From contig JAAOMT010000324.1 in the NCBI GenBank assembly GCA_016748015.1, positions 124,001 through 188,000 on the forward strand: a stretch of 64,000 bases of DNA, written 5' to 3'. Within the stretch, counting starts at the first letter, position 1. Every line of letters starts with the position of its first letter. Under the pieces are notes generated by a model. It was not told the origin of the DNA and did not search any database. It was given only the letters and a program-made list of their open reading frames with translations. The translations under genes were made by a program, and so were the position numbers. The stretch comes from Geosiphon pyriformis uo1 (lineage: Eukaryota > Fungi > Glomeromycota). This document shows, piece after piece, positions 3,400 to 62,346 of the stretch.

Positions 3400-6300
3400 T
3401 ATTATAAATAGATTTTTAAATATGTTTGATTGGTTTTATAATTTAGTGCTTGGTTTTTTACTAAAAATTTTAGTAAAAAAATTTTTGTATAATAAACAAA
3501 AATTTAATAAAATTATAATTATTAATAGATATATGTTTTTTTAACTTAATAACTAATTTATTTTGGTGTTTACACTTTTTTAATAAACAATTCTAATCTT
3601 AATAACTATATTTATGTATTTTTTATTAACCAATCTTTAATATTATAATCTTAGTACTTTTTTTAATTAATTAATAAACAAAAAAAATAACTAAAAAAAT
3701 AACTAAAATAGAAATTAATATTTTGTTAATAACTATAATTAAGAATTATTATTCAAATATAATTAAGTTAATATATTTAATACGAATAATATTTAAATAT
3801 AAAAAACATTTTAGATTTTAATAAAATAAGCCAAGATTTATTAATAAATAATATTAAATGTATTTTAATAATTATGTTTATTAAGTTAATTATGGTTTAA
3901 TTAAAGTAATAATAAAAATTAAACTAATCTCAAAATAAGTTTGTTTTGTTTTAAAATATTTTTTTTTGGTTTTTATATTTTTGTTATATATATATAAATT
4001 TTTATAATATAAAATTTCTAAAATTTTTATAATTATTTTAAACATTTACTAGAATTCTTGGTATTCCTAAAATTTTTAAAATTCTTGATATTATATGTTT
4101 TAATATTTTACTATTTTTTATTAGTTATTTTATACTATATTATTTTCTGTTTTCTTATATAAATAATATTATCTTCTTTTTTTAATATTAAGCTTTAACA
4201 AAATTTTTTAAGTTTCTTTTTTAAATAAGTTTGAGTACTTTTTTATTATTATAGCTTTGAAACTTTAGTTTTTAATTTTTCAAATTATAAATTGGTTATT
4301 TTTTCTAACTAGTTTGCTATTAAGTTTTTTATAATTAAGTATAATAATATATAGTTAATAGATTGTTTTTAAATAGATTATTAAATTGTTTTTTTAATAA
4401 AATATTTACTTATTGTACTGTTTTTTATTAAATATTTTGTTAAAACTCTCTGTATATAAAGTCTAAATATTTAGTTATTGGCCTAAGTAATAATAACAGT
4501 ATGTAATTAAAAACTGTTTTTTCTATTTTTTCTGTTTTTTTTAATTAGTTTTTCTGATTAAAAAAATATTATTGAATTTTTGAAAATATCTTTTATTTTT
4601 CTATAATTTTTTTTACATAATTATCTATTTGTTTATTTTTTTTATCATAGAGTTTTTTTAATTGTTTTTTTTTTGTATGTTTTTATAATAAATTTTTTGA
4701 TTGTTAACTGTTATTTTTATGTTTAAGTTTTTAGTTTTTAATAATTAAAATAATTATTAAGCTATTAAGTAAATATTATTTGTAATTTTTATTTTGTTAT
4801 TCTATTTTGGCTATATTTATATAATAAATGTTTGGTTTTATAACATATTAACTTTAATTATAATAATTGGTTCTAAATTTTATAAAATTTTATTTAGTTT
4901 AATTAGTATTTTTTGTACTTTTAATTATAATATATTGGGTTTTGCTAATGTTTTATTATAATATAAACTAAGTTAATTATTATGTATATTTTAATTAAAA
5001 TTTTATTTTCTAATCATAATTTATATGTTTTATTTTTAAGTATTTCTTTAATATAAAATAGTTTATCTTACTTTGAATTAAATTTTTTATCTTATTGTTT
5101 TTTTATTTTTATATAATATAAAAATACTTGTTTCTAATTTTGAATTTATTTGGTTTGTTTAATAATTAATTATTATATTTTTTTGGTTTTTTTATAACTC
5201 TTTAATATAATTAAATAGTTTTTTTCTTTTATTTTTTAATATTTTTATTAAGTTATATATTTATCTTAATAGTGTTTTTTAGAATATATTGTTTGTTATT
5301 GGTTTAATTAAGCATATTATTTTTTTTTGTTATTAATAGTATTATTGTTCTATTATTTACTAATTCAAATAATATTATTTAAATAATATCTTGTTTTATT
5401 GTTTAATAAGCAAATAGTATTAATAATATAAACAAATTTTATTTTTTTAATTCTTTTAATTGATCTTGATTAATATTTTATATAATGTTTTATTAAATTT
5501 TTTGATTAAAATATTTGTTTATAAATAATATAGTAATAATTATAGTTTTTTTACTTCAAATTTTTGGCTTTAATTTTATTAGTTTTTTGTTTATAAAGTA
5601 GGTTTTTTGATCTAATAACAGTTTTTTTGAACATTTATGTTAATATATTAAATTTTGATAAACAAATTTAACTATTAATTTTGTATTAATTTTTTATATG
5701 GTTTTAGCTTTTGGCTAATAAAATAGTTTATAATAATAACAATATATTTGTTGTTTTTAGTTGTTATTAATAATAGTTTAACTAAGTTAATTCTAATTTA
5801 ATTGAATAATTATCTTACTTAAATTGGTTTTAGTGACTCTATTAATTGTAATAATATATATATTAATAATATAATTAACTTAGTAATTTAATTAATTTAT
5901 AAATTATCATGTAATAATACTGTTTATAAAATTGTTATTAAAAATAAGCTTAATAAATTAATTAATAATCTTGGTTTTTATGTATATAATAATAATAAAT
6001 TGAATTAAATTTAAAATAACTATTAAATAATGGCTTTTTATCTTTTAATTTAAATAAAAAAATAATAATAAATATATTATCTTTGGTAATAACTACAGAT
6101 AAAATTATGTTGTAATTATTGATATTATTATTAAATATAATTATTTTGATTACAGTTAAAAAACTTAAATAGTTTTAAAAATTTAAGAAAATCGATTGTG
6201 TATTTTTTGAATTTTTGGTGCAATATTTTGTTTGTAAATTAATAGTATTAGGAATTAATTAATGTGTAATTATTATTAATTTTTAATTCTGTTGGATGAT

Positions 6301-6895: not shown

Positions 6896-7376
6896 TGTAA
6901 GATTTTATATAACAAAAAATATGTATATATAATAAAAATATTAGAAACAGAAAAAACAGAATCAATATTGACAATCAGTTAGAATTTATTAAATATCCAA
7001 TATTTTTTTCTTCAAAAGATAGTTTTTTATAACTTAAAGTGGAATCAAATCACATATTAATAAAATATTAATTATTACTTAAATTCATGTTATCATTGCT
7101 TAATTAAGAAAAATTAATTACTTCTATTCTATTAATACTCTATATTAATAGAATTCAATACTTAACTACACTAGACTAATAGCTCTTGATTATAACTATT
7201 GATGAGATACTAATTTTTTATTTTTTTTTATTTTATTTTTTTGTTGTTTACTAATTAATTAAAAGAATTAAGTACAAAGTATTTGACCTCAAGAATAGTC
7301 TGATAAAAGATCCAAAAATAAGAATAAAAATTTAAAAATAGCTTACCAAAACGACATGACTGCCAGAATAAACTGG

Positions 7377-8234
7377 TATTACTTATTATTAATAAAAATA
7401 TAAAGTAGTTAATTAAAAGTAGACATAGTAAAAGAGAAATTTCAGAATTTTTTTTGAAAAATCACAGAATTCTAGGAATTTTAGGATTTTTTTGAGAAAT
7501 TACAAAATTCCAGAAATTTTAGAATTCTTGAATAAAGAAATTAAGAAAATTTAAGCAATTTTGTATAATATTAATTATGTATATATAGCAAAAATGAAAA
7601 GCAGAAAAAGACAAAATTCAGTTTAGAATTAATACCAACAATTAATTAATTATTCAATACTTCTCTTTTCAAAATGTAGTTTTCTACAACTTGAAGTGAA
7701 CTCAAATTATATATTAATAAAATATCAATTATTACTTGAATCTATGTTATTGTTATTTGATTAAAAAATATTAATTATTGCTATTCTATCAATATTTTAT
7801 GTTGATAGAATTTAACACTTAACTATACTAAACCGATAGCTCTTAATCACAGTTATTAATAGGATACTAATTTTTTATTTTCTTTTATTGTTTTTGTTGT
7901 TTCATTTTGTTGTTGACTAATTGATTAAAAGATTAATGTGTAAAATTATTGACATCAAAAAGTACTGGTAAAAAACTTAGAAACAAGAATAAAAACTCAG
8001 AATTTAAGGATAGCTTACCAGAAAAAACCAGCCATCAAGCTGAGAAAAAAATTCACAAAATAAACTTTCAGAAGAGTACTAAACAATCATTGAATCTCTG
8101 TTCATTATACAAAAGACTTAATCAAAATCTTCAGATCACAAAAACTTTTAAATATTATCAATATTGACAAGCATTTGAGTACCAAGTTATAAGTTTGTTA
8201 TTTGTATTAACACTCCAAATAATCATTTGTAATA
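7377..8234 (+). repeat. Solo LTR (family A, type II U3 array) inserted in the A2 5' LTR
   Basis: tattact...gtaata termini; flanks ctgg/ccag are compatible with a decayed ccgg TSD; the host LTR sequence aataaac|cagccatca resumes afterwards. Confidence 0.85.
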
Positions 8235-8536: not shown

Positions 8537-9562
8537 TGTTATCTAAGTAGAAAAACCAATTCAAAGTTATAAAGAAACATGACCAAAATATGACATAATA
8601 CAGAATAGTGCACAATAATGTTGGATAATGCATTATAACTTAGAATAATATAGGATAATGTGTTATAATGTGAGATAACATAGAATAATATGTAATAACA
8701 CCAGATAACGTGTTATAACATAAAAGAATAAAGCAATAACAGAAATAGCAAAGCAATAGTTAGCAATAATGAAACAATCAAAAGCAATTTTGTAAAACCA
8801 AAAAAATATATAAAAACAAGTAGTTGTAAAAGTTAGAGAAAAGAGATATCTAGATACAAACCACTAGATAAGAATTAAATATTTTTATTTTTTCCATCAT
8901 TTATTCTATTCCATATTCATCTTCTGAAATAAATCAATTATTAAGAAATTAGAATCACAAATTAATGTTCTTGAACTTCATAAAATTTACATAAATTAAC
9001 TATTGTTTCATATCTTTGTTTCAGAACAAATGCTCTTAACATAACTGCTTCAAACTATTAATAATTTGGACCAGTCACTTTTGATCACAGCAATTGATAA
9101 TAATAATTTATCTTTTTTTATTTTTTTTATTTTTCTTTTCTTTTATTTTTATTTTTTTTCTTTTTTATTTTCTCTTGTAGAGCAGCAACATAATAAAATT
9201 GACTGTCTGAAAATAGACTTTGTGATAGTCTGGTAAAAGAGGGAAGCTCCTCCTAAGTTTTGGATATTAATATTATCTTAGTAGCTTACCAAAAGAGCAA
9301 AAAGACAATGCCAGACTCTAATAACTGTGCTCATTAGCTTGAAAAAGATAGCTCATATTTATAAAAAGTTGTAATCAGCAAAAACCAAATTTCTGTGCCT
9401 TATAACCAAAGAACTCAACAGGTAAAATCACAACCAGTAAATAAAACTTTCAGAGACTGATAATCAAGACTAAGCCAATAGAATTACATAAAACATATAT
9501 TACTGATAATTGAGAACACTAAACATTATCATTTCCCTATTCTACCAAGTTTACTTATAAAA
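8537..9562 (+). repeat. 5' LTR of B1
   Basis: tgtta start; colinear with 27903-28960; followed by a TGG-type PBS. Confidence 0.9.
8575..8760 (+). repeat. U3 tandem array type III (10-nt period, ATAAYRYRNN)
   Basis: ataacacaga / ataatgtgtt units; also at 27945-28100 and 52815-53020. Confidence 0.8.
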
Positions 9563-9627
9563 TTTGGTACGCTCTGTGAGGTTATAAAATCTACAGAGAC
9601 AGAGCATTCCAAAGATTTACAAAAATA

Positions 9628-15400: not shown

Positions 15401-15499
15401 TCCCAGACTTATAGACACAACTAATTACTACCGACTACATCAATACCTATTGACACTACATTTTAAGAAGATATTATCTTAACAAAAACAGAATACCAT

Positions 15500-15923
15500 T
15501 GTTACAGAGGATTATTTCTGCTGTTGAAGTAAATAACAACCCATAACTTGGTGCTCATGAAGCTACTTCTATTGATGAGATTCTGTGAGCATTATATCTG
15601 AAGATTTTGATGGAGTCCTTTGTATAATGGACAGAGATTCAATAGTTGTTTTATCCATAGCTTCCCAGACTTGCAAGTTTGTCAATTCTTTTCTCGGCTT
15701 GGTGGCCAGCAATCCTCTGGTAAGTAATCCGTATCTTCTGTACATGTCCTACCCTCTCGCAGAGGTCTTTTACCAGGCAATCTTTGATGTCAGTAATCAG
15801 CACTTTTCAATCAATGGATTAGTGCACAATAATAAATCAAAATAAAATAAAGAAAAATAAGAAAAAAAGAAAAAAAGAAAAGAAATAAGCCAAGAAAATT
15901 TGCAAATTAGTATCCCATCAATA
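15500..15923 (-). repeat. 3' LTR remnant of A1 (distal half only)
   Basis: Colinear with 24023-24444; similarity stops abruptly at 15923. Confidence 0.9.
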
Positions 15924-16167
15924 ATAACTCTTTTGTCAATTCTTTTATTGCTAATTTTACTTTCACCATGATTTTGTCCACCGTATTTTCAGTTTTCTTT
16001 GGTGTTCTGAGTTGTAATGTCTTTCTAGTATCTTGATATCGAATGGTTTGTTGGTTGATTGTAATCTCCATTTCCTGGTGTTGGATTAATTGAAAGAGTT
16101 GTTGTGCTAGTGTGTGAATGTTGTCTGTAATTTCCATTTTTCTGATATTTCCTGTCACGTCTACCAT
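15907..16167 (-). pseudogene. A1 ORF3, N-terminal part, fused by deletion to the LTR
   Basis: MEITDNIHTLAQQLFQLIQHQEMEITINQQTIRYQ is homologous to the ORF3 starts at 32347 and 52046. Confidence 0.78.
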
Positions 16168-16191
16168 GTCTTTATATATTCTTTTGATTAA

Positions 16192-17567
16192 TCAATTTAA
16201 CATGTTGTTGTTAATAATAACTATTGGTTCCAGATCTTGTGGAATCTCATCTGGTCGGACTAGTATTCTCTGTACTCCTAATTGTGAAATATTACTGGTA
16301 GATGGTAGTGTGATGTCACAATATGGCTTCAGTTGATCTCTATGTGTTGCTTTGGTTAAAATTTTGTTATCCAATCTTAATTTGTAAGCTTCATTTCCTA
16401 GAATTTCTTTTATGTGAAATGGTCCATCCTATTTGGGGTTGAATTTTCCACTCCATTGTTTTTCCGCTTTGGTATGATGTAGTAATACTTTGTCTCCAAT
16501 CTTGAATTCAACTGGTTTGTCTGGTAGTTGTGTTTTTCTTTTTGTTTTTCTTGTGACTTTTGAATATTATCAGCTGCTCTTCTTCATTTGTTTTCCAATG
16601 TTTCCATTAAGTCATATGTTCTTCTCAGCAATGTTTCTTGAAAATTTTCTTCTGTTATTGGTTCAGCTAGATATGTATTAATTTTTCTCTTCACTAGTAA
16701 CATTGCTGTTCTCCCATATACTAATTCAAATAGTGTTGCTTGTATAGTATTTTGTTTCATTGTTTGATAAGCAAATAGTACTGATGGTATGAACAAATCC
16801 CAATCGTTCTGGTTTTTTTGGCTGAGCTTAGCTATTGCTTTATACAGTGTTCTATTGAATCTTTCTACTAATCCGTTGGTTTGTGGATGGTATGATGATA
16901 ATAATGGTCTCTTGATTCCGAATTTTTGGCTCAATTTTGTTAATGTTTTGTTTACAAAATGAGTTCTTTGGTCTGATAATAATTCTTTTGGACATCCATG
17001 TCGACAAATCAAATTCTAATGAACAAATTTGGCAATGGATTCTGCATCTGCTCTTTGAATTGCTTTTGCCTCTGGTCATTTAGTAAGATAGTCCATAGCT
17101 ACCACTATGTATCTGTTTCCTCTGCTGGTGATTGTTAATGGTCTGACTAAATCAATTCCAATACAGTCAAATGGTTGTACCACTTTGATTGATCTTAATG
17201 GTTCACTGGGTCTTGTTTCTTCTTTTCACTGACAAGCATCACAATTTTGAACATATTGAATGATGTCTGGGTACATTGATGGCCAATAGTATTTCTTTCT
17301 GGTTCTTTCTATGGTTGCTTCTTTGTGAAAATGTTTTGCTGTTGGATTTGAGTGCATGTTGAATAATATTGTCTCTTTTTCTGGCTCCATAATTACTGTG
17401 GTTGGTTAATCTGGATCTCTTCTATTTTTTTGATAAAGTATATTTTGGTAAGTGATAAAATATTTTGATTGTTGTTTGATACTCTTTCGTTTTGTTTGAG
17501 ATAAATTCTCTTTGAATTGTTGAATGTTTATATAATGTTGCAATTGTTGATATTTTTGTATATTCAT
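16192..17567 (-). pseudogene. A1 integrase (HHCC zinc finger, DDE core, GPF/SH3-like C-terminus, no chromodomain seen)
   Basis: ATG at 17567 (MNIQKYQQL); MHSNPTAKHF...CDAC; IGIDLV; ELLSDQ; YHPQTNGLVERFN; DGPFHI. Confidence 0.9.
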
Positions 17568-17630: not shown

Positions 17631-20600
17631 TTAGATTTGTCCTATTCACGATAAACCGTCCGCATTTCCATTGTTTTTTCCTTTTTTATAATGTATAGTA
17701 TACTTATATGATGCAAGTGCCATTTTCCATCTTGACTGTTTTCTATCTCCAAATTCTTGTTTTTGAAGTGATATTAATCCTTTGTGATCTGTGTACACCT
17801 CAAATTTCTGGCTCAAATATTTTTTCCATTTCATAACTGACTAGTATATTGCTAAGTGTTCTTTTTCTGGTGTTCTATAGTTCTTTTCGGCCAGTGTTAA
17901 ACCTCTGCTGGTATATGCCACTGAATGTTCTCTGCTGTCTAGTCTTTTTTAAGATAGTACTGCTTTTAATGCCTGGCCAGATGCATCTGTGGTGATAATA
18001 AATGGTTTGCTGTAATCTGGATAGATCAGTACTGGAGCTTGTATAAGCTTTCTTTTTAGAATATCAAAAGCTTTTTGTTGACTTTCAGTTCATTCATATT
18101 TTGTATTTTTGTTTTGCAGTTGGTTGAGTGGCTGCACTATCTTGGAAAAGTTTTTGATAAAATGTTGATAGTAGCTGGCGAATCCCAAGAATGATTTCAG
18201 TTCTGTTATATTGGTCAGCACTGAAAAGTTTTTTACTATCTCTATTTTCTCCAGATCCGTTTTGATGCCATTTTTGCTGACTATGTGTCCTAAGAATTTT
18301 AGTTCTGTCTTGCCGAAGAAGCACTTTGTTGCATTTAACTTTAGTCCTGCTCTTCTTAGTCTTTCGAACACTTGTTGAAGATGATGAAAATGATCATCAA
18401 ACGTTTTTGAGAATACATTGGTGTTGTTCAAGTATACAACTACTGATTTTCACAATAAGCCAATATAAACAATTTCCATTAGCCGTTGGAAAGTTGCTGG
18501 GGCATTGGTTAAGCCGAATGACATCACTTCAAATTCGAAATTCTTTTTTCTAATAGTAAATGCTGTCTTCTCTTTGTCAGCTGGATTCATGGCTACTTGC
18601 CAGTAACTGCTGTCCAAATCTAATGTTAAGAGCCATTTGTTCCCACTGAAAGCATCGAATAATTCCTGTATTCATGGAGTTGGATAACTGTCTCCACAAG
18701 TTACACCATTGAGTTTCCTGTAGTCTACACAAAACCGGATTTTTCTATTCTTCTTATGGATGAGTACCACTGGTGATGACCATGGGCTCATTGATAGTTG
18801 AATTAGCCCCATTGTCAAGCATTCTGTTTATTTCTTGACAAATGATTTCATGGCTGGCTGGTGGTACTCTGTATGCTTTTTGTTTGATTGGCATTGTATC
18901 TCCAGTCTTGATCTGATGCTGGATGATGTCAGTTCAGCCAAACTCATTTTCACTGGCAAAGATGTCATTAAAATTGTTGAGTAACATTTTGAGCTACATA
19001 CATTGAAGTGGATCTAAGTTTCCTATGTTCATTTGTTCCAATTGTTTTGGTTGGAGCAAATAACATTCATCTCGTTCATAGATTGTTTGTGATGTGATGT
19101 TAACATATCCACAAAGTTGTGGAAAGTCTAAAATGGGGTTTGGTGGTTGGTCTTCTATTTCTGTGGTTACATATCTGATGGTGATTCCTTCTGGTATGTT
19201 GATGACATTACCAGTGTTGTTGTAGATAAGAATTTTTATGCTGCTATAGCTTTTGGCTGGTATGTGGAGATTGATTAACCCAATCTCTTCTGATTTACAA
19301 AGGTTTGCTTCAGCTTCAAAAATTTGTCCTTGCTTCTTTTCTTTCCTTCCTATTGTTAACATGTACTGGCTATATGGTGGAATGGAAATAGCTTGACCAG
19401 TTGAGATAATTTCTTCTTGGCCAACAATTTCTTCCTCTGCCATATTAACTGGTACATCTATTCTACCCATTGATCCAAATCCCTGTATTCTTCTCACTGT
19501 TATTCTTAATTCCTCTCTCTTTTCCACTAATACTAACTGAGCTACTCTAACCACAAGCAGAAATATTGTCTGTGCTATTTTTTCATTGAGCTCTATTATG
19601 TAGGCCTTTTTTGAGTCATTTTGTAGCATAGCGATGATATTTTCTACATATTCTGTGTTAATTATTTCTCCTCTTATATTGATCTCTCTTTTTGCTAAAC
19701 TACTCCTAGATGTTAATTGAACTATTGTTGTTGCCAGAATTTCTAGTGCTATTTTCAGATCAATGCAGATGTGTGAATGCGGTTCCAATTTGATGGCATT
19801 ATTTCCTGGATATCTCAGATCAAACCCTGCGTCCGTATAATGCACATGTTCTGGCATAATACCTTCTCCATTGTCACTATACCATTTCAACTCTTGTTCC
19901 TTGGAAAGATCTGGTAGTGCAATGTATTGTTTATGGTTTAAATCAGAGTTTGAATCTGAGTTGGAATCATTTTTGTTGTCATTGTCATTTTGAACAGAGC
20001 TGGAACCGATGTTTTTGTCATTATCGTTGGAGTCTGAATCGCAATTGATCAGCAATTCTGATTCCGATGCACAGCTGCTGATTGGTTTTTCTTCTTCAGG
20101 GATCAAGTAGATTATGCGTGGTGGTAGATTGTAAAGGAGGTCACAATCATCACAATATTCAAAGTCACTGAGAATTAAACAATGGCGACACAGTCTTGTA
20201 TTCAACTGTGCTAGCCATTGTTCTTGCTCTTTTCTAGTGGGTGCCAAGTTTTGGTAGTGTTCATGGAACTCTTCAGGTTCCAGAGAATTTATGGCTGGCT
20301 TTGCATTCCAGTTAAGCTCGATGAGTTCTGGTAAGTTGTTTTTGATTTCTCTGATTTCTTTGGGTGTTGCTCCTTCTATTTTGGCGATTGCCATTCTCCA
20401 CAATTTGTTGTCATCGTGTGGACAACTGTCTAGTCACTGCACGGCTCTTCTCCAGGCTGCTTCTATTGGGGTTCTTTTCCTTATCCAGTCACTTATTAAA
20501 ATTGTGTATTAACACAACACGTCACACGTTCCTTCACGTCCTGGGATGTTGTTCCACATCCCTTCATCTAGTAGGGTCTCCCCACAAGTGAGACAAGATT

Positions 20601-23963: not shown

Positions 23964-24003
23964 ATTTAGATTTGGGTTGGTACTGGTTCTCTGTAGGATT
24001 ATA

Positions 24004-24022
24004 CCTCACAAGGAGCACCAAA
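24004..24022 (-). promoter_or_regulatory. Primer-binding site TT-TGGTGCTCCTTGTGAGG, elongator tRNA-Met-like
   Basis: Lies directly after the LTR end; variants at 39961-39979, 9563-9581 and 8404-8422. Confidence 0.8.
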
Positions 24023-24870
24023 TGTTACAGGAGATTATTTCTGCTGTTGAAGTAAATAACAACCCATAACTTGGTGCTCATGAAGCTACTTCTATTAATA
24101 AGGTTCTGCGAGCATTGTATCTGAAGGTTTTGATAGAGTCTTTTGTATAATAGACAGAGATTCAATAGTTGTTTTATCCATAGCTTCCCAGACTCGCAAG
24201 TCTGTCAATTCTTTTCTTGGCTTGATGGCCAGCAATTCTCTGGTAAGTAATTTATATCTTCTGTACATGTCCTACCCTCTCGCAGGGGTCTTTTACCAGG
24301 CAATCCTTGATGTCAATAATCAGCGCTTTTCAATCAATGGGTTAGTGCATAATAATAAATCAAAATAAAATAAAGAAAAATAAGAGAAAAATAAAAAAAA
24401 AAAAAATAAGCCAAGGTGATTTGCAGATTAGTATCCCGTCAATAGCCATGATCAAGAGCTATTGTTCCAGTGTGGTTAAGTATCACTTATTATCAACATG
24501 AAGTGTTAATAGTGGAAAGTGGATTGAGATATGAAATAATTATTTATTTGATGATTTTTGTTTCTAGGCTAAGGATTCTGTGGTATTGATTCTGTCTTTT
24601 CTGTTTTTAATACTACTGCTATATATACATAATTGAGATTTCTCAATTCCTCAATTCTTTACGACAGGAATCCTGAAATTCCTGGAATCCTGCAATTCCT
24701 TTGAGAGGAATCCTGGAATTCTGAAATCCTGTAATTCCTCGTCAAAAAATCCTGAAATTCCTGGAATCCTGCAATTCCTGAGAAGAATCCTGGAATTTCA
24801 CATTTACTATGCTTACTTCTGATTGGCTAATAATTATGCTAATATATTTCTTATATTTCTATGAGTAATA
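24023..24870 (-). repeat. 5' LTR of A1 (848 bp)
   Basis: Termini t(g/a)ttac...gtaaca; type II array; TATA-like tgtatatatagc at ~24618-24630. Confidence 0.92.
24645..24800 (-). repeat. U3 tandem array type II (GGAATTGCAGGATTCCAGGAATTTCAGGATT-like units)
   Basis: Repeated tcctgaaattcctggaatcctgcaattcc on the + strand; also at 25665-25830, 7435-7560 and 4010-4090. Confidence 0.85.
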
Positions 24871-25589
24871 CCATATAAAAACAAGCCCGAAATTATTTTA
24901 TTTAAGACAACCAACTATATCAATAAGAATATTGAAACTGTCCCACCTTACAATAAGTTATCAAAAACAGTGAAAAAGAAACTATATTACATAGTATGCA
25001 TTCTGATCCAACCACAGAACATTTTAACAAAGATGCTATCCTTAAAAGAATCCTAAATTTATACTATTGGCCAATAATATACAAAGACATTTTCAAATAT
25101 ATGCTTAATTGTAACTTATGCCAGCAAAGAAAAGGAGCCAGAACAATGAAACCACTTTGACTCATTCCAGTTGGAAATCTATTTGATAGAATTGAAATCA
25201 ATTTGATTGGTTTTCTTTTTATAACATTCAAAAAAAATTGTTATATCACTGTAACTGTAGACTACTTGACAAAATGGCTAGAAGCCAGAGCCATCCAAGT
25301 AGCAGATACTAAAACAATAGCTGAATTTGTATATCAAGATCTGATTTGCAAACATGGATGCTTAAAAAAACTCCTATCTAATCAAGAAATGCATTTTGTT
25401 AATAATACATTAACTAAATTAAGTTAATAGTTTGAAATAAAATATTCTTTATTGTTACCATATCACTTACAAATAAACAGACTAGTAGAACAATTTAACC
25501 AAATACTGTGTAAAACATTAGCAAAAATAAGTTATGAAAATAAACAAAAATGAAACTTATTTATATTTTCTGTACTCTTTGCATACCAA

Positions 25590-26525
25590 TGTTACTCATA
25601 GAATATAGGAATTAAATATTAGTACATAAATTAGCCAATTAGAATAAACATAGTAAAAGTGAAATTCCAGGATTCTTTTTAGAATAATTGCAGGATTCTA
25701 GGAATTTCATGATTCTCATATAAGAAATTGCAAGATTCCAGAATTCCAGAATTCCTCTCAAAGGAATTGCAGAATTCTAGAAATTCTAGGATTCTTGATT
25801 AGAGAATTGAGGAATTCAAAGAATCTTGTACAATAAAATTTATGTATATATAGCAGTAGTATCAGAAGCTAGAAAATTAGACTTTTAGAATCAGTAGAAC
25901 TCTCAAAGTCAATTAGACTTACAAGTCATAATTATTAGAATCTTTTAGCTAGAGACCTCTCAATTTAGATTTAATCTAAGCAACCTTTTATATTACAAAT
26001 ATCTAATAAATAATTATTTATTATCTCAAATCTACTCTTCACTATTAACACTTTATATTGATAGTAATTGATACTTAAACCACATTGGAACAATAGCTCT
26101 TAATTACAGCTATTGATAAGATACTAACTTTTATTATCTTGGCTTATTTCTTTATTTTTTTTTATTTCTTTTATTTCTTTTATTTTTATTTTTATTTTTT
26201 TGTTGTGTACTAATTAATTAAAGAATTAAAATACTGAGTTATTGACATCAAAGATTGCCTGGTAAAAGACTCTTGCGAGTGAGTAGAGCACGTAAAGAAA
26301 TTATGAATTACTTACCAGAGGAGTACTAGTCATTAAGCTAAAAAAAGAAATTGACAGAATTGCAATTCTGGAAAGCTATAGATAAACAACTATTGAATCT
26401 CTGTTCTCAACCAAAACCTTCAGATAAACAATACTTTCAAATCACTATCATTGTGAAATAGCTTCTGAGTACCAAGTTACAGGTTTTGTTATTTGATTTA
26501 AAACCCCAAATAATCATCTATAATA
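25590..26525 (+). repeat. Solo LTR (family A, type II array) inside the B1 integrase
   Basis: tgttactc...taata termini; TSD ccaa/ccaa; integrase sequence gcataccaa|acactaaa resumes afterwards. Confidence 0.92.
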
Positions 26526-27902: not shown

Positions 27903-28960
27903 TGTTACCTGAGTAGAAAAATTGATCCAAAGTTATAAAGAAACATAACCAAAACATGACATAACACAGAATAGCATGCAATAGTATTGAATAATATATT
28001 ATAACTTAAAATAATACAGAATAATGTGTTATAATATGGAATAACACAAAATAACATGTAATAACACCAGATAATGTGTTATAACATAAAATAACCAGAA
28101 ATAATTTAAAAAAAAGAAGCAAAAACAGAATTAATAAAGTAATAGTTAGCAATAATGAAACAATTAAAAACAATTCTGTAAAACCAAAAGAATGTATAAA
28201 AACAAGTAATTATAGAAGTTAAAGAAAAAAGATATCTAGATATGAATCACTAGACAAGAATCAAATATTCTTACTCCTTCTATCATTTATTCTATTCTAT
28301 ATTCATCTTCTAAAATAAATCAATTATTAAGAAATCAGAATCATAAATTAATGTTTTTGAACTTCATAAAATTTACGTAAATTAACCATTGTTTTATACC
28401 TTTATTCCAGAACAAATATTCTTAGCATAATCATCTCAAACTATTAACAATTTGGACCAGTCGCTCTTGATTATGGTAATTGATAATATTAATTTATCTT
28501 TTTTTATTTTTCTTTTCTTTTATTTTTATTTTTTTTATTTTTTTTTATTTTTTTTTATTTTTTTATTTTCTTTTGTGGAGCAGCAACATAGTAAAATTAA
28601 CTGTCTGGAAATAAACTTCATAATAATTTGGTAAAAAAAAGAAGCTTTTTTTAAGTTTTGGATATTAACATTATCTTGGTAGCTTATCAGAAAGATGAAA
28701 AGACAACACCAGATCTTAATAACTGTGCTCATTAGCTTGAAAAAGATAGCTTATATTTATAAGAAGTTGCAATCAACAAAAACCAAATCTTTGTGTTTTA
28801 TAACTAAAAAACTCAATGGGTAAAATTACAACCAGTAAATAAGACCTTTAGAGACTGATAATCAAGAATAAATCAACAGAATTATACAAAACATGCATTA
28901 TTGATAATTAAAAACACTAAATGTTACCATTTTCTTATTCTACCAAGTTTATCCATAACA
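27903..28960 (+). repeat. 3' LTR of B1
   Basis: tgtta...taaca; preceded by a purine tract; matches 8537-9562. Confidence 0.92.
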
Positions 28961-30814
28961 CCAAACTCATCTTAAATTAACAAGTAACCATTGGCCAGTA
29001 AAATCAGTTTTTAATTACTATGTTAACAAAAAAATTAAATTCTACTTGAAAAACTAAAAAGATTCAGAAGCTATTCTTAACAATTTTTATAGTGAATTAT
29101 TCCAAAGCATTATACTTCTACTAAATCTTTGTTTGCACCAATAATCACAGAAATAAACAAAAAAATTGAAAATTACATTCAACAGAAATTTTTTATTACT
29201 TTTGCAAACAAAAAAAACTATAAGCTCCAACAGAAACACCAAGAAAAATACAACCACCTACTTAGAAGAAACCAAAAGTTATTTTACCTATTTACTTGTC
29301 ATACAATTATACACCAGGAAGTACTATACATATACTATCAGAATTTATATTACTATTAACTACAAAAACACTATTATTTAGAGTTTTATTTTAAAATAAT
29401 TAAAAAAAAGCCAAATTATTAAAAATCTATAGTGATTTTTTTAAAAAATTTAAATCATAACTGACAAACATTATTAAGACTTTGATTGCCACCACTTCAA
29501 CCAGATTTTAGATTTACTAGTTATTGGGAAGATATTAATACAGAAAAAAAAGAAGACAGTGATTAGAAAAATAATAATCAAAACTTAATCCCAAATAATC
29601 CAGAAATACAAACCCCAATTGTTTCAACTTAGCAAAACTTGAACAATCCAAATTCCACTCCTATTATTTAACAAAACCTATCTTCAGTGATTGTGATCAA
29701 TTTACTAGTTGTACTAATTGCCTTATCACAACAACAAAAATAACAATTAACACCCATAGCATATATATTTATTGCCAAACTCAAGAAATTTATTGGCAAA
29801 GAGAACAATATCCAAGTATGATTGAACAATATTGTCAAAACAATTACAGTTAATAACTGGGACAACACCAAAGTTTTTTAAGTTATTCTCTATTTCTTAT
29901 AAGATATTGCTAATTTATGATATCAGAACTTAGTTAGCAATTCACAAACTTTTGATGCATTTAAAACTACATTTTTGCAATATTTTAGTAATTACAACAG
30001 TATTAATCACCTGTTAACTAGCTTTACTACTATTAAACAAGACAATACTAAAGCAGTTACCACTTACTTGAGACACTTTTACAGAAATCTGCACCAAATT
30101 CAAGCAATTTAAGCTGATTACTTTATCAAAACACAAATTTTGAGCCAGTTTATCCATAGATTATACAATAGTCTTTTATAATAAGTATATTTAATATATC
30201 CAAATACTTTCTAGAATGCAGTCACACATGCCAAAAATCTTGAATTAACCAAACTTAAAGCCAACTATGTTCAAGCCATCAACTTAATAATAAATAGATC
30301 ATTTGAATTGAATACCAAATTGAAGCAATTTGGTAAAGCCATTAATTAAAAAATTAAGAAATACTTAGCTAATAATCAAACAATCTATTAACCTCCATAA
30401 TACTATAACAATCAAAGAAACTCTAATTAATTCCAGAATTAATTACATCTATTATTTTTATCAACCAACCAATTATGACAGTACAAGATGTGTATCTGTC
30501 ACTATTGTAATAAACAAGAACACTTAAAATTAGACTACTATGCAAGATTAAATAACCAAAAATTGGGAAATCAATATCAAAATTCCAATTATCAGTTTCA
30601 AACTCCAAATTATATCCCAAATCAGAAACAATATCACTTATTACACTCCAATGATACAACAACCAATATATTCCTCTTCAATATATTAAACTCCAGGACC
30701 AGTTATCTATTAGTCATAGCCACAAGTTATTTATTAACCATTACAAATTCAAGCATTGTCACAAAACTTAGTTTAAATGTCAACCAACAACTAAAGACTG
30801 AAAATTACTCATAT

Positions 30815-31697
30815 TGTTACAGATGATTATTTGGGGTCTCAAATTAAATAACAAATCCATAACTTGGTGCTCAATATCTTGACAATGCTAATGATACTGG
30901 TACATTGGTTGTATCTGAAGGTTTTAGAGTTGAGTTTTTTGTATAATAGACAGAGATTCAATAACAATATAATTGGTTGGTAAGTTGTGTTCCCAATTTC
31001 TGTCTTCAGCTTGGTAGTCAGTTTATTCTGGCAGTTATGCCCTTCTGGTAAGCTATCTGTTAATATATATATAATTTTACCCTTATTTCTGGGTCTTTTA
31101 CCAGGCTATCCGTGATATCAATTATTCAGCACTTTAATCCTTAATCAGTTAGTATATAACAGTAAAAATCAAAGAAAAAAAGAAATAAAAAAAAATAAAA
31201 AAATGAGCCAAGGCAATGTGTACGTTAGTATCTTGTCAATAGTCATAATTAAGAGCTATTGTTTCAGTGTAGTTAGGTATCAATTACTATTAACATAAAG
31301 TGTTAATAGTGGAGAGTGAATTTGGATAGTAAATGATTTATTTATTTAATATTTGTGGATGGAAGATTTCTAACTAAAAGATTCTTATCTTTCTATTTCT
31401 AATACTACTGCTATATATACATAATTAATGTTCTATGAGATCGCTTATATTCTCTAGTGATGTGCTATGATTTCTTGAGCAATGCTCATATTGCTGAGCA
31501 ATGTGCTCTAATTTTCTAACATCACTCTATATTGCTGAGCAATGTGCTGTGTTTTCTGATATTGCTCCACATTGCTGAGCAATGTGCTGTAATTTCTATC
31601 ATTGTTCTACATTGCTAAACAATGTGCTTATATGCTACATACTATTTATTTATTGGTCTATTATTCTTCCTATATCTGTTTTTTTTTATGAATAACA
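30815..31697 (-). repeat. 3' LTR of A3
   Basis: Colinear with 39980-40823; tgtta/taaca termini. Confidence 0.92.
31445..31635 (-). repeat. U3 type I palindromic array, cleanest copy
   Basis: cacattgctgagcaatgtg-like dyad repeated 4-5 times at ~39-40 bp spacing. Confidence 0.88.
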
Positions 31698-31711
31698 TTA
31701 TCTCCTATTTT

Positions 31712-32347
31712 TTAATATTGAGCTCTGTTGAAATTTTCATTCTGAATTAGCTCTAATACTTCTTTTTCTAGTATTGTTTATTTGACTTTATTTTTTACGT
31801 CTTCTACTTGTATATTGTTCATTTTTCCCCATTGGTTAATAGTTATAGTTTTTATGTCAGAGTGTAATAGTATTTCTGGATAATTCTGAAATATATTGTG
31901 CAGTCAGTAAATTGTTCTCACATGTAGTGTTGAATTTGTCTTTTTCCCAATAAATTCTTCAATTTGCTGTATTATGTTTTGGTTAAATATTTTTTTGGAT
32001 TTGTTAATATACAACTCTTGAATATTTAACTTTTGACCTAACTGGTAGTAACAGTATGATATTGGAAGTTGTTTTGTCCATTGCTTCCAATTCTTTTTTG
32101 TAAGTTCTTCTGTTGGTGCCATAATAAATATTTTCCCAAAAGTGTTTTTTACTTTTTCTATTATTTTATTTGACCAGTTTTTATCATTCTTTGGTAATCA
32201 CTGATATGGTGTATTCTTTGTCTTTCTTTTGGTGTTTTGATAGTAAATTGTTTGGTTGTTAACAATAATTTTTATGTCTAAAGGTTGTTGACTTAAGGTC
32301 TGGAATAATTGTTGAGCTATAATGTAAATATGATCTGGTATTTCCAT
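31712..32347 (-). pseudogene. A3 ORF3, ~211 aa, unknown function
   Basis: ATG to TAA in one frame (636 nt) with a few point stops; MEIPDHIYIIAQQLFQ...YCYYQLG...FNRAQY*. Confidence 0.8.
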
Positions 32348-32409
32348 TTTTTTTCTTGGTTGTCTTTGTTACGTATATTGTGTCTTTATATACTCTTTTA
32401 TTGTTTGAT

Positions 32410-39979: not shown

Positions 39980-40823
39980 TGTTATAGATGATTATTTGGA
40001 GTCTCAAATCAAATAACAAATTCATAACTTGGTGCTCAATATCTTGACAATGCTGGTAATACTGGTATGTTAGTTGTATCTAAAAGTTTTAAAATTGAGT
40101 CTTTTATATAATAGACAGAGATTTAATAATGATATAATTAGTTGGTGAGTTGTGTTCCCAATTTCTGTCTTCAGCTTGGTGGCTGGTTTATTCTTTAGTC
40201 ATGCCCTTCTGGTAAGCTATTTGTTAATATATATATAATTTTACCCTTATTTCTGGGTCTTTTACTAGGCTATCCATGATGTTAATTACTCAGTGCTTTA
40301 ATTTTTAATTAGTTAGTATATGACAGTAAAAATAAAAGAAAAAAATAAATAAAAGAAAATAAAAAAATGAACCAAGGTAATATGCACGTTAGTATCTTAT
40401 CAATAGCCATGATTAAGAGCTATTGTTCCAGCATGGTTAGATATCAATTATTATCAACATAAAAAGTTGATAGTAGAAAGTAGATTTGGATAGTAAATGA
40501 TTTATTTATTTAATATTTGTGGATAAAAGATTTTTAACTAAAGAATTTTTATCTTTTTACTTCTAATACTATCATTATATATACATAATTGATGTTCTAC
40601 AAGATCACTCATATTTTTGAGTAATGTGCTATGATTTCTTAAGCAATGTTCACATTGCTAAGCAATGTGCTCTAATTTTCTAACATTGCTCCACATTGCT
40701 GAGCAATGTGCTATGTTTTCTGACATTGCTCTATATTGCTAAGCAATGTGTTCACATACTACATACTATTCATTCATTGGTCTATTATTCTCCCTATATC
40801 TGTTTTTCTTTTTATGAGTAACA
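39980..40823 (-). repeat. 5' LTR of A3
   Basis: Adjacent to the PBS; type I array at 40610-40755. Confidence 0.92.
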
Positions 40824-46800: not shown

Positions 46801-46987
46801 ATTATTCAGAAATATTACTACACCAAAAAATGGAAACAATAATTGTTAACCAATAGAAAAAAATAAACAACTCTCAATATAAAAAAATAAAGAACAAAAT
46901 CAAACAAACAGTATTAAAAAGAAAAATAATAGACTTGATTCAAAATAAAAATTTTGACAGAGCTTAATATTAAAAAAGAGAAGATAA

Positions 46988-47995
46988 TATTATTTATAAA
47001 TAAAGTACAAAAAAAAAAGTAGAAAAAACAGATAGAAAAATAGACTAATAAGAGAATAATATTTAATAAGTGAGCATAATATTTAAAAAATATAATATAT
47101 TGCTTAGCAATATATATATTATTAGTAAATTATGGTATACTGTTCAGCAATAAGCATATTATCAGAAAATCATGATATATTGCTTAGCAATAAACACATT
47201 GTTAAAAAATTATGATATATTGCTTAATAATAAGCATATTGTTAAGAAAAATAGGGCATATTGCTCAAGAAAATATAAGATTTTATATAACAAGAAATAT
47301 GTATATATAGTAAGAGTATTAGAAACAAAAAAGACAAAATCAATACCAATAATCAGTTAGAATTGATATCAACAATCAATTAGAATTTATTATTTACCCA
47401 ATATTTTTCACTTTAAAAAGTATTTTTCTACAACTTGAAGTAGAATTAAATTACATATTAATAAAATATTAATTATTATCTAAATCTATGTTATCATCAC
47501 TTGATTAAGAAATATTAATTATTTTTACTCTATTAATACTTTATGTTAATAAAATTCAATATTTAATTATATTAAACCAATAGTTCTTAATTATAACTAT
47601 TAACAGAATACAAATTTTTTATTTTTCTTTTCTTATTTTTTTTTATTTTTTTTATTTTTTTTTGTTTTATTTTTTTGTTGTTTATTAATTGATTAAAAAA
47701 ATTAAGCACTGAGTATTTAATGTCAAAAATAATCTGATAAAAAACCCAGAAATAAGGATAGAAATTTAAAAATAGCTTACCAGAAAAACATGACTGCCAA
47801 AATAAACCAGCCATCATACTGAAGAAAAAAATTCACAAAAGAAATTTTTAATTAAATTTTTGTTTATTATACAAAAAACTTAACCAAAACCTTCAAACTC
47901 CAAAATCTTCAGAAATTATTAACATTACTCAACTATTAAATACTAAGTTACAGATTTGTTATTTGTATTAACATTTTAAATAATTACTTATAATA
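46988..47995 (+). repeat. 3' LTR of A2
   Basis: Follows the PPT aaaagagaagataa; type I array; U5 terminal hairpin. Confidence 0.85.
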
Positions 47996-52793: not shown

Positions 52794-53791
52794 TGTTACC
52801 CGAGTAGAAAAACATGACCAAAACATGAACAAAATGTGATATAACACAGAATAATATGCAATAATGTGCAATAATGCATTGTAACTTAGGATAATGCAGA
52901 ATAACACATTATAATATAAAATAACACAGAATAACATATAATAACACCAGATAATGTGTTATAACATAAGATAACTAGCAATAACATAGAATAATGAAGC
53001 AATAACAAAAATAACAAAGCAATAGCTAATGATAATGTAACAATTGAAAGCAATTCTGTAAAACCAAAAGAATATATAAAAACAAGTACTCATAGAAGTT
53101 AGAAAGAGGACAGATAGCTAGACAAGAATTAATTTTCCTTTACTCTCTCATATTTTAGCCTATACACACATTCTAAAATAAAATCAAATATTCCAAATTC
53201 ACAAATCTATGTTCTCCCAACTTCTATGTTTTAATTGAATCATTGTTGATTACCTCTATTCTAGAACAGATGCCATTAGTATAAATGCCTCAAATATTAA
53301 CAACTTGGACCAATTGCTCTTGATCATGGTAATTGACGGGAACTAATTCTTTTTTTTTTTTCATTTTCATTTTTTCTTGTTTTTTTTTTGTTTTTTTTTG
53401 TTTTCTTTTTTTTTGTGTGGAGCGACAACATTGGAAAATTGATTGTCTTGGAATAGACTTCGTGATAGTTTGGTAAAAAAAGGAAGCTCCCCCTACAGTT
53501 TTGGATATTAATGTTATCTTGTTAGCTTATTAAAAGGGCGAAAAGACAATGCTGGACCCTAACAACTGTGCTTGTTAGCTTGGAAAAAAATGTTCACATT
53601 AATGGAAAGGTTGCAATTAACAAGAGATAAACTCTGTGCCTTATAACCAAAGAACTCAACGGGTAAATTTATGTACAGAAATAGACCTTCAGAGACTGAT
53701 AACACTAATACTGAGAAAAACATACAAACTTGAAAGACTAAAGTAAAGCACCAAACATAAATACCATAAACATGGAATTCTATCCATAACA
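52794..53791 (+). repeat. 3' LTR of B2
   Basis: Similar to the B1 LTRs; type III array; conserved hairpin module at 53306-53347. Confidence 0.9.
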
Positions 53792-54926
53792 ACATATAAG
53801 AATTAAAGAAAAAAAAAAATAAGATAACAACTTTTATCTCAATCATTCTTTTATCACAAATTTTTTTTTCCCTACCTTTAAGTATCTGAACATTTTGGAA
53901 TAAAAGATTACTTATTGGTTATTTTTTACCCTTTTTCTGAAATATGTAATTATAGTATTTGAAGATTATTGAATAAAACATAACTGAAGAGTACATCTGA
54001 TATCTGATATTGAATTCTAAGAATGCTGATATAAAACATAGAATTATACCAGTATATGATTATTTGTTGACAATATGGACTATTTTTCTACTTTTAGATT
54101 CTCCAATTATCTTTTGAAAAATATAGCAATTGAAATATTTTATGAAACTGATCTTGTATATTAAATTCATATTTATTCAATTCACTCTTTAAAATTGAAT
54201 TCTCTTTGATTTCTTTCATCATTTTACAATCTTGTTCTTTCTTGCTATCTATTAGCTTGTTACTTCAACTCATAACAGTATTTTAAAGTTTAGTATTGTT
54301 TTGGTTAATTTAAATAACCAAACATTTTTAAATATATGTATTTTAAATATAACTATTATTAATTTTAATTTTTACAATATATATTAAATTAAATAAAAAT
54401 TTATTTATTTATTAAAATAAAATTAAAAACTATATTAATATTATTAATAATAAATATATAAATATGTTTATAAATATATTTATAATTTTACTTTTTATTT
54501 TGTTTTTTAATATTAGTAAATAATTTTTTATTTTTTAAAAAAACTGTTTTTAAAAATACTTATTATTTTATAAGTTTGTTTAATTTTATTAATTTTGTTA
54601 AAGCCAAATATGTTAAAAAATTTGTAAATAAGTTTTAATTTATAATTTTAATCTAAAAACTGTAATAATATAATATTTTAATAGATATTTATAAATTGGC
54701 TTAACTAACTTAATTTTTACTGTTTTTTATTTTTATTTTTAAAAGTTTTATATATAAAATTGTTTATTATTTTAAAAAAAAACTATATAAATTTTTTTTT
54801 TTATTTTATTTTAATGAGTAAGGTCCAAACACTACCTAGTACAATACATCATACAAGTGATCTAAACTAAGTGTGAATCATGCTCTTTCTACACATGACC
54901 AGCCACTCAGACTAGTCAGGACAACA

Positions 54927-61486: not shown

Positions 61487-62306
61487 AATGAAAGGATTAT
61501 TAAAGAAATATTGAAAGATTTGACAAGAAAAAACAGAAAACTTCTTTTTCAGAAATGCACCTTTTTGAGGATTTTTAGGAAGTAAGAGAGAAAGAAGTTT
61601 TTTATATAATTTTAAGTTAAAAATTATTTATATTTATTATAATTTATTAAAAAACTTTGGTTATATTTTCTTATTTATATTAAATTCTGTTATATAAAAA
61701 AATATTATTGTTGTTTTAATAAAATAGCATGTTTTATTTAATTAGTTGTTAATTCTTTGATAATTAAATATTATATAATAATAAGATTAATAATTATATA
61801 AATATAGTTAGTATAAAAAGTTTTGTTTTCAGAAATTGGTTTTTAAAAACATTAAAAATATTTAAAAATAGTTTTAAAACTATTATAAATTTTATTAAAA
61901 TTGTATATAATATAGCTGGTTATTTTAAGTTAAATATATAATTGCTTAATTTTAATTTTAAAATTATTTATAAAAAATAAAATTTAATTATTAGCAATAG
62001 ATTATAATTTTTAAGTTTATTATTAAATAGCTTTGTTGTAAATATTTATAATTTAAGTTTTAATTATAGTATTTTAATTAATTTTGGTTTTAAAGTTTTA
62101 TTATCTTTAATATTTATGTTTTTAATAATATAAATTTATAATATTGTTTTAAGTAATTAATTATATATAAAAAAAACATAAATTATATTTTTTTTTAAAT
62201 TTAATATATTATAATAAATAATAATTGGACTGTAATTATTAATTAATATAAAAAATTTAATTAAACAATACAGTTAAATATTAATTCAAAATAAATTCAG
62301 TAAATA

Positions 62307-62308
<2 letters not shown>

Positions 62309-62346
<38 letters not shown>
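62309..62346. repeat. (TTA)n microsatellite
   Basis: About 12 perfect units. Confidence 0.9.

What the first reader, a model, noticed from the sequence alone, without database searches (positions are those of the whole stretch)
24427..24469. Covarying hairpin + branch-point-like motif + long U tract conserved in every LTR of both families
Consensus: UGGAM-CAAUAGC-UCUUGAUCAYG-GCUAUUG-ACGGGAUACUAAY followed by ~50-90 nt of U-rich sequence. It is seen at ~3720, 7172, 7830, 9067, 24427, 26086, 28453, 31224, 40388, 47575 and 53306. The stem changes compensatorily (CAAUAGC/GCUAUUG in A, CAAUUGC/GUAAUUG in B2, CAGUCGC 5' arm in B1), while the 11-nt loop and ACGGGA are nearly invariant. It is the most conserved non-coding element between the families and matches no motif I recognise.
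Basis: partly seen in the sequence, partly recalled or inferred. Interest (0 to 1): 0.75.

Follow-up and report, generated by a model that had tools for sequence, protein, structure and literature searches.

The report
Palindrome-loop hairpin in fungal retrotransposon LTRs
The end repeats of two related jumping-gene families in a mycorrhiza-type fungus have diverged beyond alignment except for one 45-base stretch, a predicted RNA hairpin with a self-complementary loop that likely lets two copies of the element's RNA pair up for packaging, although its loop could instead bind the splicing RNA U2.

Summary
The motif is real: 11 full copies and one truncated copy, one per LTR, on the coding strand of Ty3/gypsy elements whose gag relatives are all named Geosiphon pyriformis. 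It is the only LTR block shared above chance between families A and B. 'Covarying' is overstated: most variation is C>T/G>A decay, one stem pair shows a true double change (one copy), and two B copies break that pair. No Rfam match; no homologue found outside the window; no RNA data. New here: the loop holds the palindrome UGAUCA, and the hairpin lies between the TATA box and the primer-binding site, so I read it as a likely dimerisation/packaging signal (0.4). It is not an HIV-type DIS: the loop's flanking bases are pyrimidines. Main rival (0.25): the branch-like motif and U tract load U2 snRNP, and the loop heptamer is the exact complement of U2 G25-G31, the strand freed when the branch helix forms (chance about 0.003, found post hoc; 5S rRNA pairs equally well as a control). 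Two loop positions separate the two models.

The parts
24023..24870 (-). 5' LTR of a family A Ty3/gypsy element (decayed TG start, ends TGTAACA; 4-bp target duplication)
   Evidence: 92% identical to the surviving part of the 3' LTR at 15500-15923
24620..24628 (-). TATA-like box, downstream of 39-bp U3 tandem repeats (24668-24797)
   Evidence: function inferred
24543..24548 (-). AATAAA; a similar hexamer lies upstream of the hairpin in 10 of 10 LTRs with this part; candidate poly(A) signal that would put the hairpin in U5
   Evidence: weak in AT-rich DNA, RNA ends not mapped
24465..24469 (-). Conserved 5' flank UGGAM; predicted short lower stem and 3x1 purine-rich internal loop with ACGG
   Evidence: 3-4 pairs with two G-U, no covariation, marginal
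24458..24464 (-). Hairpin 5' arm
   Evidence: pair probability 0.98-1.0 in the folded 646-nt leader; z -2.7
24447..24457 (-). 11-nt loop; no transversion in 11 copies
   Evidence: central six bases unpaired with probability 0.92-1.0
24449..24454 (-). Loop palindrome UGAUCA (candidate kissing sequence)
   Evidence: seen in the sequence; intact in 3 of 11 copies, others differ by transitions; chance 0.09-0.12
24450..24456 (-). Loop heptamer CUUGAUC, exact complement of U2 snRNA G25-G31
   Evidence: chance 0.002-0.003 for U2 19-32, 0.008-0.012 for U2 15-50
24440..24446 (-). Hairpin 3' arm
24427..24439 (-). ACGGGA plus branch-site-like UACUAAY; can pair with U2 33-44
24349..24409 (-). U-rich tract
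24326..24345 (-). Second branch-like CTAAC and first downstream AG (AAG); family A only
24240..24299 (-). Second conserved stem CUGGUAA/UUACCAG closing a variable domain; its 5' arm resembles a splice donor
   Evidence: in 11 of 11 LTRs examined; no true covariation; pair probability only 0.13 in the whole leader
24154..24162 (-). Conserved AAUCUCUGU, complementary to ACAGAGA (23988-23994) just after the PBS
   Evidence: probability 0.54 in this copy, about 0 in two more decayed copies
24071..24079 (-). U5 segment complementary to the PBS
   Evidence: pair probability 0.7-0.98 in two A leaders, 0.8-0.96 for six pairs in one B leader
24003..24020 (-). Primer-binding site (starts TGG, two bases after the LTR)
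   Evidence: primer tRNA not identified by a tool
3711..3767 (-). Motif copy, heavily decayed
7161..7217 (+). Motif copy, family A
7818..7874 (+). Motif copy, family A
9056..9112 (+). Motif copy, family B1 (5' LTR)
15895..15924 (-). Truncated copy (3' arm onward) at an internal deletion breakpoint
26075..26131 (+). Motif copy, family A solo LTR
28442..28498 (+). Motif copy, family B1 (3' LTR)
31221..31277 (-). Motif copy, family A (3' LTR)
40385..40441 (-). Motif copy, family A (5' LTR)
47562..47618 (+). Motif copy, family A (3' LTR)
53295..53351 (+). Motif copy, family B2 (3' LTR); least decayed B copy

Best explanation
This is a conserved sequence block in the LTRs of Ty3/gypsy retrotransposons, predicted to fold as a hairpin in the element's 5' leader RNA, and it likely serves as the dimerisation/packaging signal: the exposed loop palindrome UGAUCA would pair with the same loop of a second genomic RNA. 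Shown: the block, its place between the TATA-like box and the PBS on the coding strand, its unique conservation between families, the palindrome. Predicted by folding: the hairpin with an open loop, and a more stable two-strand duplex. Inferred: that it is transcribed as R/U5 leader, that loops kiss and mature into an extended duplex with help from Gag, that the G-rich flanks are Gag contacts, and that the U tract is a spacer that keeps the hairpin apart from the downstream PBS domain. It is in both LTRs because reverse transcription copies R/U5 to both ends.
For: Only A-B LTR block above chance, between families whose integrases are 70% identical over 54 aa. Hairpin probability 0.98-1.0 and open loop in the 646-nt leader of the best copy, 0.85 in a second. 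Two-strand duplex -31.6 vs 2 x -9.8 kcal/mol, with the palindrome paired. A palindrome cannot change by one step without losing pairs, which fits a loop with no transversion in 11 copies (inference). With the U-G pair closed the loop is 2+6+1 nt over a stem and a purine-rich 3x1 internal loop; HIV-1 SL1 has a 9-nt loop with a 6-nt palindrome (PMC4066764, passages) and an internal loop bound by NC (PMC516450, passages). Ty1 dimerises through palindromes at nt 13-29 of its 5' UTR, upstream of the PBS (PMC6844567, passages). The rest of this leader also looks like structured replication RNA (anti-PBS stem).
Against: A 6-nt palindrome occurs in 9-12% of random 11-nt loops. The bases flanking it are pyrimidines, whereas HIV-1 needs three purines and A272C abolishes the long-lived kissing complex. 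Only two of its six pairs are G-C. The U-G closing pair that gives the 2+6+1 layout has probability 0.31-0.37. Any hairpin gains energy as an extended duplex, so one search is weak support. The model does not explain the conserved CU before the palindrome, the ACUAAY or the length of the U tract. The two B1 copies do not fold into the hairpin. No RNA or dimer data.
Confidence: 0.4

Rival explanations
1. Splicing-factor landing pad. UACUAAY plus the AG-free U tract would recruit branch-point protein, U2AF and U2 snRNP; in the strong form the hairpin loop also pairs with U2 G25-G31, the strand released when the branch helix forms and later needed for U2/U6 helix Ia, so that U2 is loaded efficiently or held in a stalled state. 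This would control leader splicing, nuclear retention or 3' end formation of the element's RNA.
For: Loop heptamer is the exact complement of U2 25-31 in Rfam-confirmed U2 genes; chance 0.002-0.003 for U2 19-32, also when a palindromic loop is given. G25-C45 and C28-G42 are BSL pairs and G25-C28 pair with U6 (PMC13019295, passages). The tail extends the branch helix (random flanks as good in 2.8% and 7.3%). RRWACTAAY follows the stem intact in 8 of 12 copies, both families. Two-site score beats 59 of 60 and 56 of 60 shuffles of two U2 sequences; U1, U5, U6 and two tRNAs are at chance. A donor-like CUG/GUAAAA follows in 11 of 11 LTRs.
Against: Found post hoc. The 5S rRNA control scores as well (-19.9 vs -18.6; 89 of 90 shuffles beaten). 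The first AG is 49-100 nt away and is AAG in 8, GAG in 2, TAG in 1 of 11, while 94% of Fusarium acceptors are YAG and 83% of their U tracts lie before the branch site (PMC5677156, passages). A GT donor-like site 15-20 nt before the hairpin exists in some A subfamilies only. RRWACTAAY is common in this window (25 found, 21 expected). The host's own U2 was not available. The U2 genes were fetched with a pattern that fixes nt 23-45, so their identity there is by construction.
Confidence: 0.25
2. Protein-binding hairpin for Gag, an export factor or a translation factor, in which neither the palindrome nor the U2 match matters; the U tract aids translation of a long leader with many upstream AUGs.
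For: Sequence conservation of loop and flanks without covariation; 9 AUG triplets in the 646-nt A leader, the last being the gag start.
Against: Leaves both the palindrome and the U2 complement to chance; no positive test.
Confidence: 0.15
3. 3' end signal: hairpin and U tract act downstream of the poly(A) site in the 3' LTR as a U-rich downstream element or termination pause.
For: AATAAA lies 75-140 nt upstream in 10 of 10 LTRs with that part; U-rich downstream elements are usual (own knowledge).
Against: The U tract starts over 130 nt from the hexamer; does not explain an invariant 11-nt loop; hexamer is common in this DNA.
Confidence: 0.1
4. DNA-level element: a downstream promoter site with a poly(dA:dT) tract, the inverted repeat being two protein half-sites.
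For: TGATCA is a palindrome in DNA too; lies about 160 bp after the TATA-like box.
Against: Spacing from the TATA box varies widely between subfamilies; the arms differ between families at pair 5 while staying complementary in one B copy.
Confidence: 0.05
5. Pairing with 5S rRNA (loop plus tail are a colinear complement of 5S nt 31-45 when the 3' arm is looped out), or a self-cleaving ribozyme.
For: 5S two-site score beats 89 of 90 shuffles; tail of the 53.3k copy forms 10 pairs with it.
Against: One non-host 5S sequence only; the B1 tail breaks the pairing after five pairs; no Rfam match to 5S or any ribozyme at E up to 10 and 5; the two possible loop-tail pseudoknots need a one-base linker across 7-12 pairs (seen from the sequence).
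Confidence: 0.05

Closest known systems
HIV-1 SL1 / dimerisation initiation site (PMC4066764 passages; PMC516450 part 1 of 4 and passages)
   Same: Leader hairpin, about 7-bp upper stem, 6-nt loop palindrome, possible 2+6+1 loop, asymmetric purine-rich internal loop below
   Different: Flanking bases are pyrimidines, palindrome is A/U-rich, site lies inside the LTR upstream of the PBS, followed by a branch-like motif and long U tract; dimerisation untested
Ty1 PAL1/PAL2 (SL1) dimer contact (PMC6844567 passages)
   Same: Fungal LTR retrotransposon; palindromic contact in the 5' UTR upstream of the PBS
   Different: In Ty1 the palindromes form the stem around a 3-nt loop and no kissing step was confirmed; here the palindrome is in an 11-nt loop, in a Ty3/gypsy element
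Spliceosomal branch site with extended branch helix and U2 BSL strand invasion (PMC13019295 passages; PMC13167188 listing only)
   Same: UACUAAY, upstream bases able to pair with U2 39-44, pyrimidine tract downstream
   Different: No conserved YAG or upstream donor; pairing of a substrate hairpin loop with the BSL 5' strand was not seen in the passages read
Proposed Ty1 lariat intermediate and Dbr1 dependence (PMC5399748 passages)
   Same: A branch nucleotide inside an LTR
   Different: The Ty1 branch is proposed at the last base of U3 and remains disputed; here only a branch-like sequence is seen, apparently in R/U5
Cassandra, Helenus and Ajax: LTRs with small-RNA-derived parts (PMC10886601, parts 1-2 of 6)
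   Same: A conserved small-RNA-related block inside LTRs
   Different: Those are short non-autonomous elements with sense 5S or tRNA promoters; here no tRNA or 5S match is detected and the elements are full-length

Membership tests
Ty3/gypsy LTR retrotransposon (host element) | gag, then RT-RNase H, then integrase | tested here: met
   Retrotrans_gag, RVT_1, RT_RNaseH, rve in that order on the coding strand
Ty3/gypsy LTR retrotransposon (host element) | TG..CA LTRs, PBS, polypurine tract, target duplication | tested here: met
   4-bp duplications at three insertions, one with a transition
HIV-1-type DIS | 6-nt palindrome in an apical loop | tested here: met
   UGAUCA, intact in 3 of 11 copies, others decayed
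HIV-1-type DIS | 9-nt loop, 2+6+1 | tested here: inconclusive
   needs a U-G closing pair of probability 0.31-0.37
HIV-1-type DIS | three flanking purines | tested here: not met
   C, U and Y here against A272, A/G273, A280
HIV-1-type DIS | RNA dimer forms and depends on the palindrome | not testable with these tools
   only a computed duplex energy
Spliceosomal 3' splice region | CTRAY branch consensus | tested here: met
   intact in 8 of 12 copies; fungal consensus
Spliceosomal 3' splice region | YAG acceptor close behind | tested here: not met
   first AG 49-100 nt away, YAG in 1 of 11
Spliceosomal 3' splice region | conserved upstream donor in the same transcript | tested here: not met
   donor-like site in some A subfamilies only
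Spliceosomal 3' splice region | junction or lariat in RNA | not testable with these tools
   no RNA run could be laid
Rfam families, including self-cleaving ribozymes, 5S and tRNA | covariance-model match | tested here: not met
Cassandra/Helenus/Ajax (Pol III promoter in LTR) | sense 5S- or tRNA-derived promoter in a short non-autonomous element | tested here: not met

The most novel reading that the evidence does not exclude
The hairpin is a two-handed U2 snRNA clamp encoded by a retrotransposon LTR: its tail forms an extended branch helix with U2 33-44 while its loop captures U2 25-31, opening the BSL and blocking U2/U6 helix Ia. Because the same loop carries the palindrome, it would switch between binding U2 in the nucleus (retention, stalled splicing or a first-step-only branch) and kissing a second genome for packaging. 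It would give a defined spliceosomal branch site in which to test the disputed lariat intermediate of LTR retroelements.
Probability: 0.15. Interest if true: 0.85.

Novelty: new variant of a known kind. Interest (0 to 1): 0.47.

Why it matters
Little is known of the RNA signals by which Ty3/gypsy elements dimerise and package their genomes. A 45-nt block that outlasts the rest of the LTR is a ready candidate in an early-diverging fungal lineage, and is a marker for finding these LTRs. If the loop instead pairs with U2 25-31, it would be a kind of substrate-U2 contact that my searches did not find described, and would bear on BSL opening and on the Dbr1/lariat question. Both readings can be told apart by two loop positions.

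Tried and rejected
No whole genome is held for the window. No RNA holder listed; three DNA contig sets were laid, one of which may be the window's own source: the motif bin and the TATA bin were the deepest of 30 and 2,696 contigs lay on the 66-nt stretch, but depth is not copy number and the second lay gave no variant table. Outside homologues: viral contigs 0 with two patterns; GTDB genomes 0; metagenomes 44 pattern hits, 44 of 44 judged chance (no clean stem with U tract or branch motif); RT search in viral contigs 0, then 23 distant elements with an alignment; 399 Mycoplasmatales genomes scored for host contamination gave 3 distant RT matches in one; none of these 26 loci holds the motif by profile or covariance model. 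Supplements of PMC11952901, PMC11075540 and PMC8647823 hold no match to two 8-mers of the loop; one file of the last was not searched, and their repeat libraries may lie outside the files held. The truncated LTR at 15923 is an internal deletion with a short shared word at the junction, not a splice product. Database gene models that run from the LTR into gag gave no usable junction. Short sense matches of the 5' flank to U6 and of the second stem to the U1 5' end are not kept across subfamilies; set aside. A likeness to the simian retrovirus CTE and to the hairpin ribozyme is recalled, comes from no call, and fails on inspection. A U5 box that may pair with the anticodon arm of the primer tRNA rests on a recalled tRNA; two searches for such a tRNA gave none usable. 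The protein atlas gave no answer. The 1000-shuffle repeat of the two-site test was not obtained, so its counts rest on 60-90 shuffles. Four papers were not held. Literature searches that showed no description of this motif in their listings; most subscription papers are outside that library.

Full report
Setting. The window is a nest of decayed Ty3/gypsy retrotransposons plus one LINE. Family A carries gag, dUTPase, RT-RNase H and integrase in gypsy order; family B has the same dUTPase and integrase domains, with integrase 70% identical to A over 54 aa. All 98 relatives found for the A gag N-terminus are named Geosiphon pyriformis, so the host is that fungus or a close relative (inference). 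The A LTR at 24023-24870 (minus strand) has U3 tandem repeats, a TATA-like box at 24620-24628, a TGTAACA end, and a PBS two bases later. CpG is depleted to 0.23 of expectation, and differences between related LTRs are nearly all transitions in every C context: 31 of 33, 99 of 104, 144 of 151, 106 of 118; between the two B lineages 137 of 201. This decay must be discounted before reading conservation.

Observation. Eleven full copies are found by pattern (0 in 100 shuffles), profile and covariance model, and a twelfth begins at a deletion breakpoint. With U tracts masked, it is the best local alignment between A and B LTRs in 3 of 3 pairs and the only one above the maximum of 150 shuffles. So the claim that it is the most conserved non-coding element holds. 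The covariation claim does not: 91% of cells pair, but of four pairs changed on both sides three are double transitions in single copies; the one true change is A-U to U-A in the 53.3k copy, and the two B1 copies have C-A there and do not form the hairpin as they stand. With three lineages and this decay, significance cannot be reached. The loop shows no transversion in 11 copies; ACGGGA is intact in 2 of 11 and altered by more than decay in B1. Rfam has no match at gathering score in the window, nor a meaningful one at loose E-values in an A and a B LTR.

Anatomy. In the folded 646-nt leader of the best copy the 7-bp stem has probability 0.98-1.0 and the loop centre is open; a second A leader gives 0.85; the B1 leader gives 0. 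Below the stem a marginal 3-4 bp helix with a purine-rich 3x1 internal loop can account for UGGAM and ACGG. The loop holds the palindrome UGAUCA. After the branch-like motif come 49-100 nt without AG; family A alone has a second CTAAY shortly before that AG. Further down, both families keep a stem CUGGUAA/UUACCAG, a segment complementary to ACAGAGA after the PBS, and a segment complementary to the PBS. These blocks are colinear in A and B but not individually significant. An AATAAA upstream of the hairpin in 10 of 10 LTRs suggests that the hairpin is in U5 (weak, unmapped).

Best reading. The most conserved hairpin of a retroelement leader, with an exposed palindrome, fits a dimerisation/packaging signal. 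HIV-1 uses a 9-nt loop with a 6-nt palindrome (PMC4066764, passages); palindromes recur in retroviral dimer links (PMC516450, part 1 of 4 and passages); Ty1 uses palindromes upstream of its PBS (PMC6844567, passages). Against it: a palindrome arises in 9-12% of random loops, the flanking purines that HIV-1 needs are absent, the 2+6+1 layout is a minor fold, and the CU, ACUAAY and U tract stay unexplained. It works like a DIS at best; it is not a member of the HIV-1 type. Confidence 0.4.

Main rival. Using Rfam-confirmed U2 genes, the loop heptamer is the exact complement of U2 G25-G31 and the tail pairs with U2 33-44. U2 G25 and C28 are BSL pairs and G25-C28 later pair with U6 (PMC13019295, passages). 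Chance of seven Watson-Crick pairs with U2 19-32 is 0.002-0.003, with U2 15-50 about 0.01, anywhere in U2 0.04-0.05; the tail extension is matched by 2.8% and 7.3% of random flanks. In a two-site test U2 beat 59 of 60 and 56 of 60 shuffles and five of the six control RNAs were at chance, but 5S rRNA beat 89 of 90, which shows how easily such matches arise; the 5S pairing is broken in B1 while the branch helix is compatible with the 28.5k copy after decay and broken at one place in the 9.1k copy. The splice context is poor for a fungus: YAG in 1 of 11, U tract after rather than before the branch site, no shared upstream donor. Confidence 0.25 for a splicing-factor site, 0.15 for the loop-U2 contact. 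The two models share the GAUC core and are not exclusive.

Reach and limits. No copy was found outside the window in viral, metagenome or prokaryote collections, nor in 26 loci of more distant gypsy elements; these collections hold little fungal repeat DNA, so this says little about distribution. All evidence comes from 12 decayed copies in one window. Eight literature searches showed no description of the motif in their listings. Four look-ups in this scan's notes gave nothing that bears on it.

Verdict. A real, apparently undescribed leader element of a fungal gypsy lineage; most likely a new variant of a known kind of signal; covariation unproven; one surprising and cheaply testable alternative. 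Interest 0.47.

Noticed in passing
window 24071-24079 with 24012-24021 (-); 9542-9571 (+): A U5 segment pairs with the PBS in both families (probability 0.7-0.98 in A), like retroviral U5-PBS stems; a Tf1-like self-priming reading was considered and judged less likely because the TATA-like box is about 550 nt upstream.
   Followed up: partly
window 24120-24128 (-) and matching places in all 10 LTRs checked: A conserved ACCUUCAGA box about 110 nt before the LTR end may pair with the anticodon arm of the primer tRNA (recalled tRNA-Met; not verified by a tool).
   Followed up: partly
window 24240-24299 (-) and 10 other LTRs: Second conserved stem whose 5' arm looks like a splice donor and whose 3' arm resembles the U1 5' end; the enclosed small hairpin differs between families (ACCC/GGGU vs AGGG/UCCU).
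   Followed up: partly
window 18994-20433 (-), 13334-13669 (+): Both gypsy families encode a dUTPase upstream of RT.
   Followed up: no
window about 31700-32400 (-), 46250-47060 (+), 15930-16230 (-): A decayed extra reading frame lies between integrase and the 3' LTR; not identified.
   Followed up: no
window 15496-15499 / 24871-24874, 25586-25589 / about 26526, 30811-30814 / 40824-40827: Target-site duplications are 4 bp.
   Followed up: partly
window 54927-61627 (-): A less decayed LINE with an RNase H domain; a fragment of it lies at 24-892.
   Followed up: no
window 54320-54784 and 61930-62322: Very AT-rich self-complementary stretches flank the LINE.
   Followed up: no
P0092-P0189: 98 database 'hypothetical proteins' are pieces of this gypsy gag; several begin in LTR sequence and look like gene-model artefacts.
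   Followed up: partly
L045-L129, L134-L136: Several prokaryote MAGs hold tandem arrays of eukaryotic U1 and U2 genes, that is host contamination.
   Followed up: no
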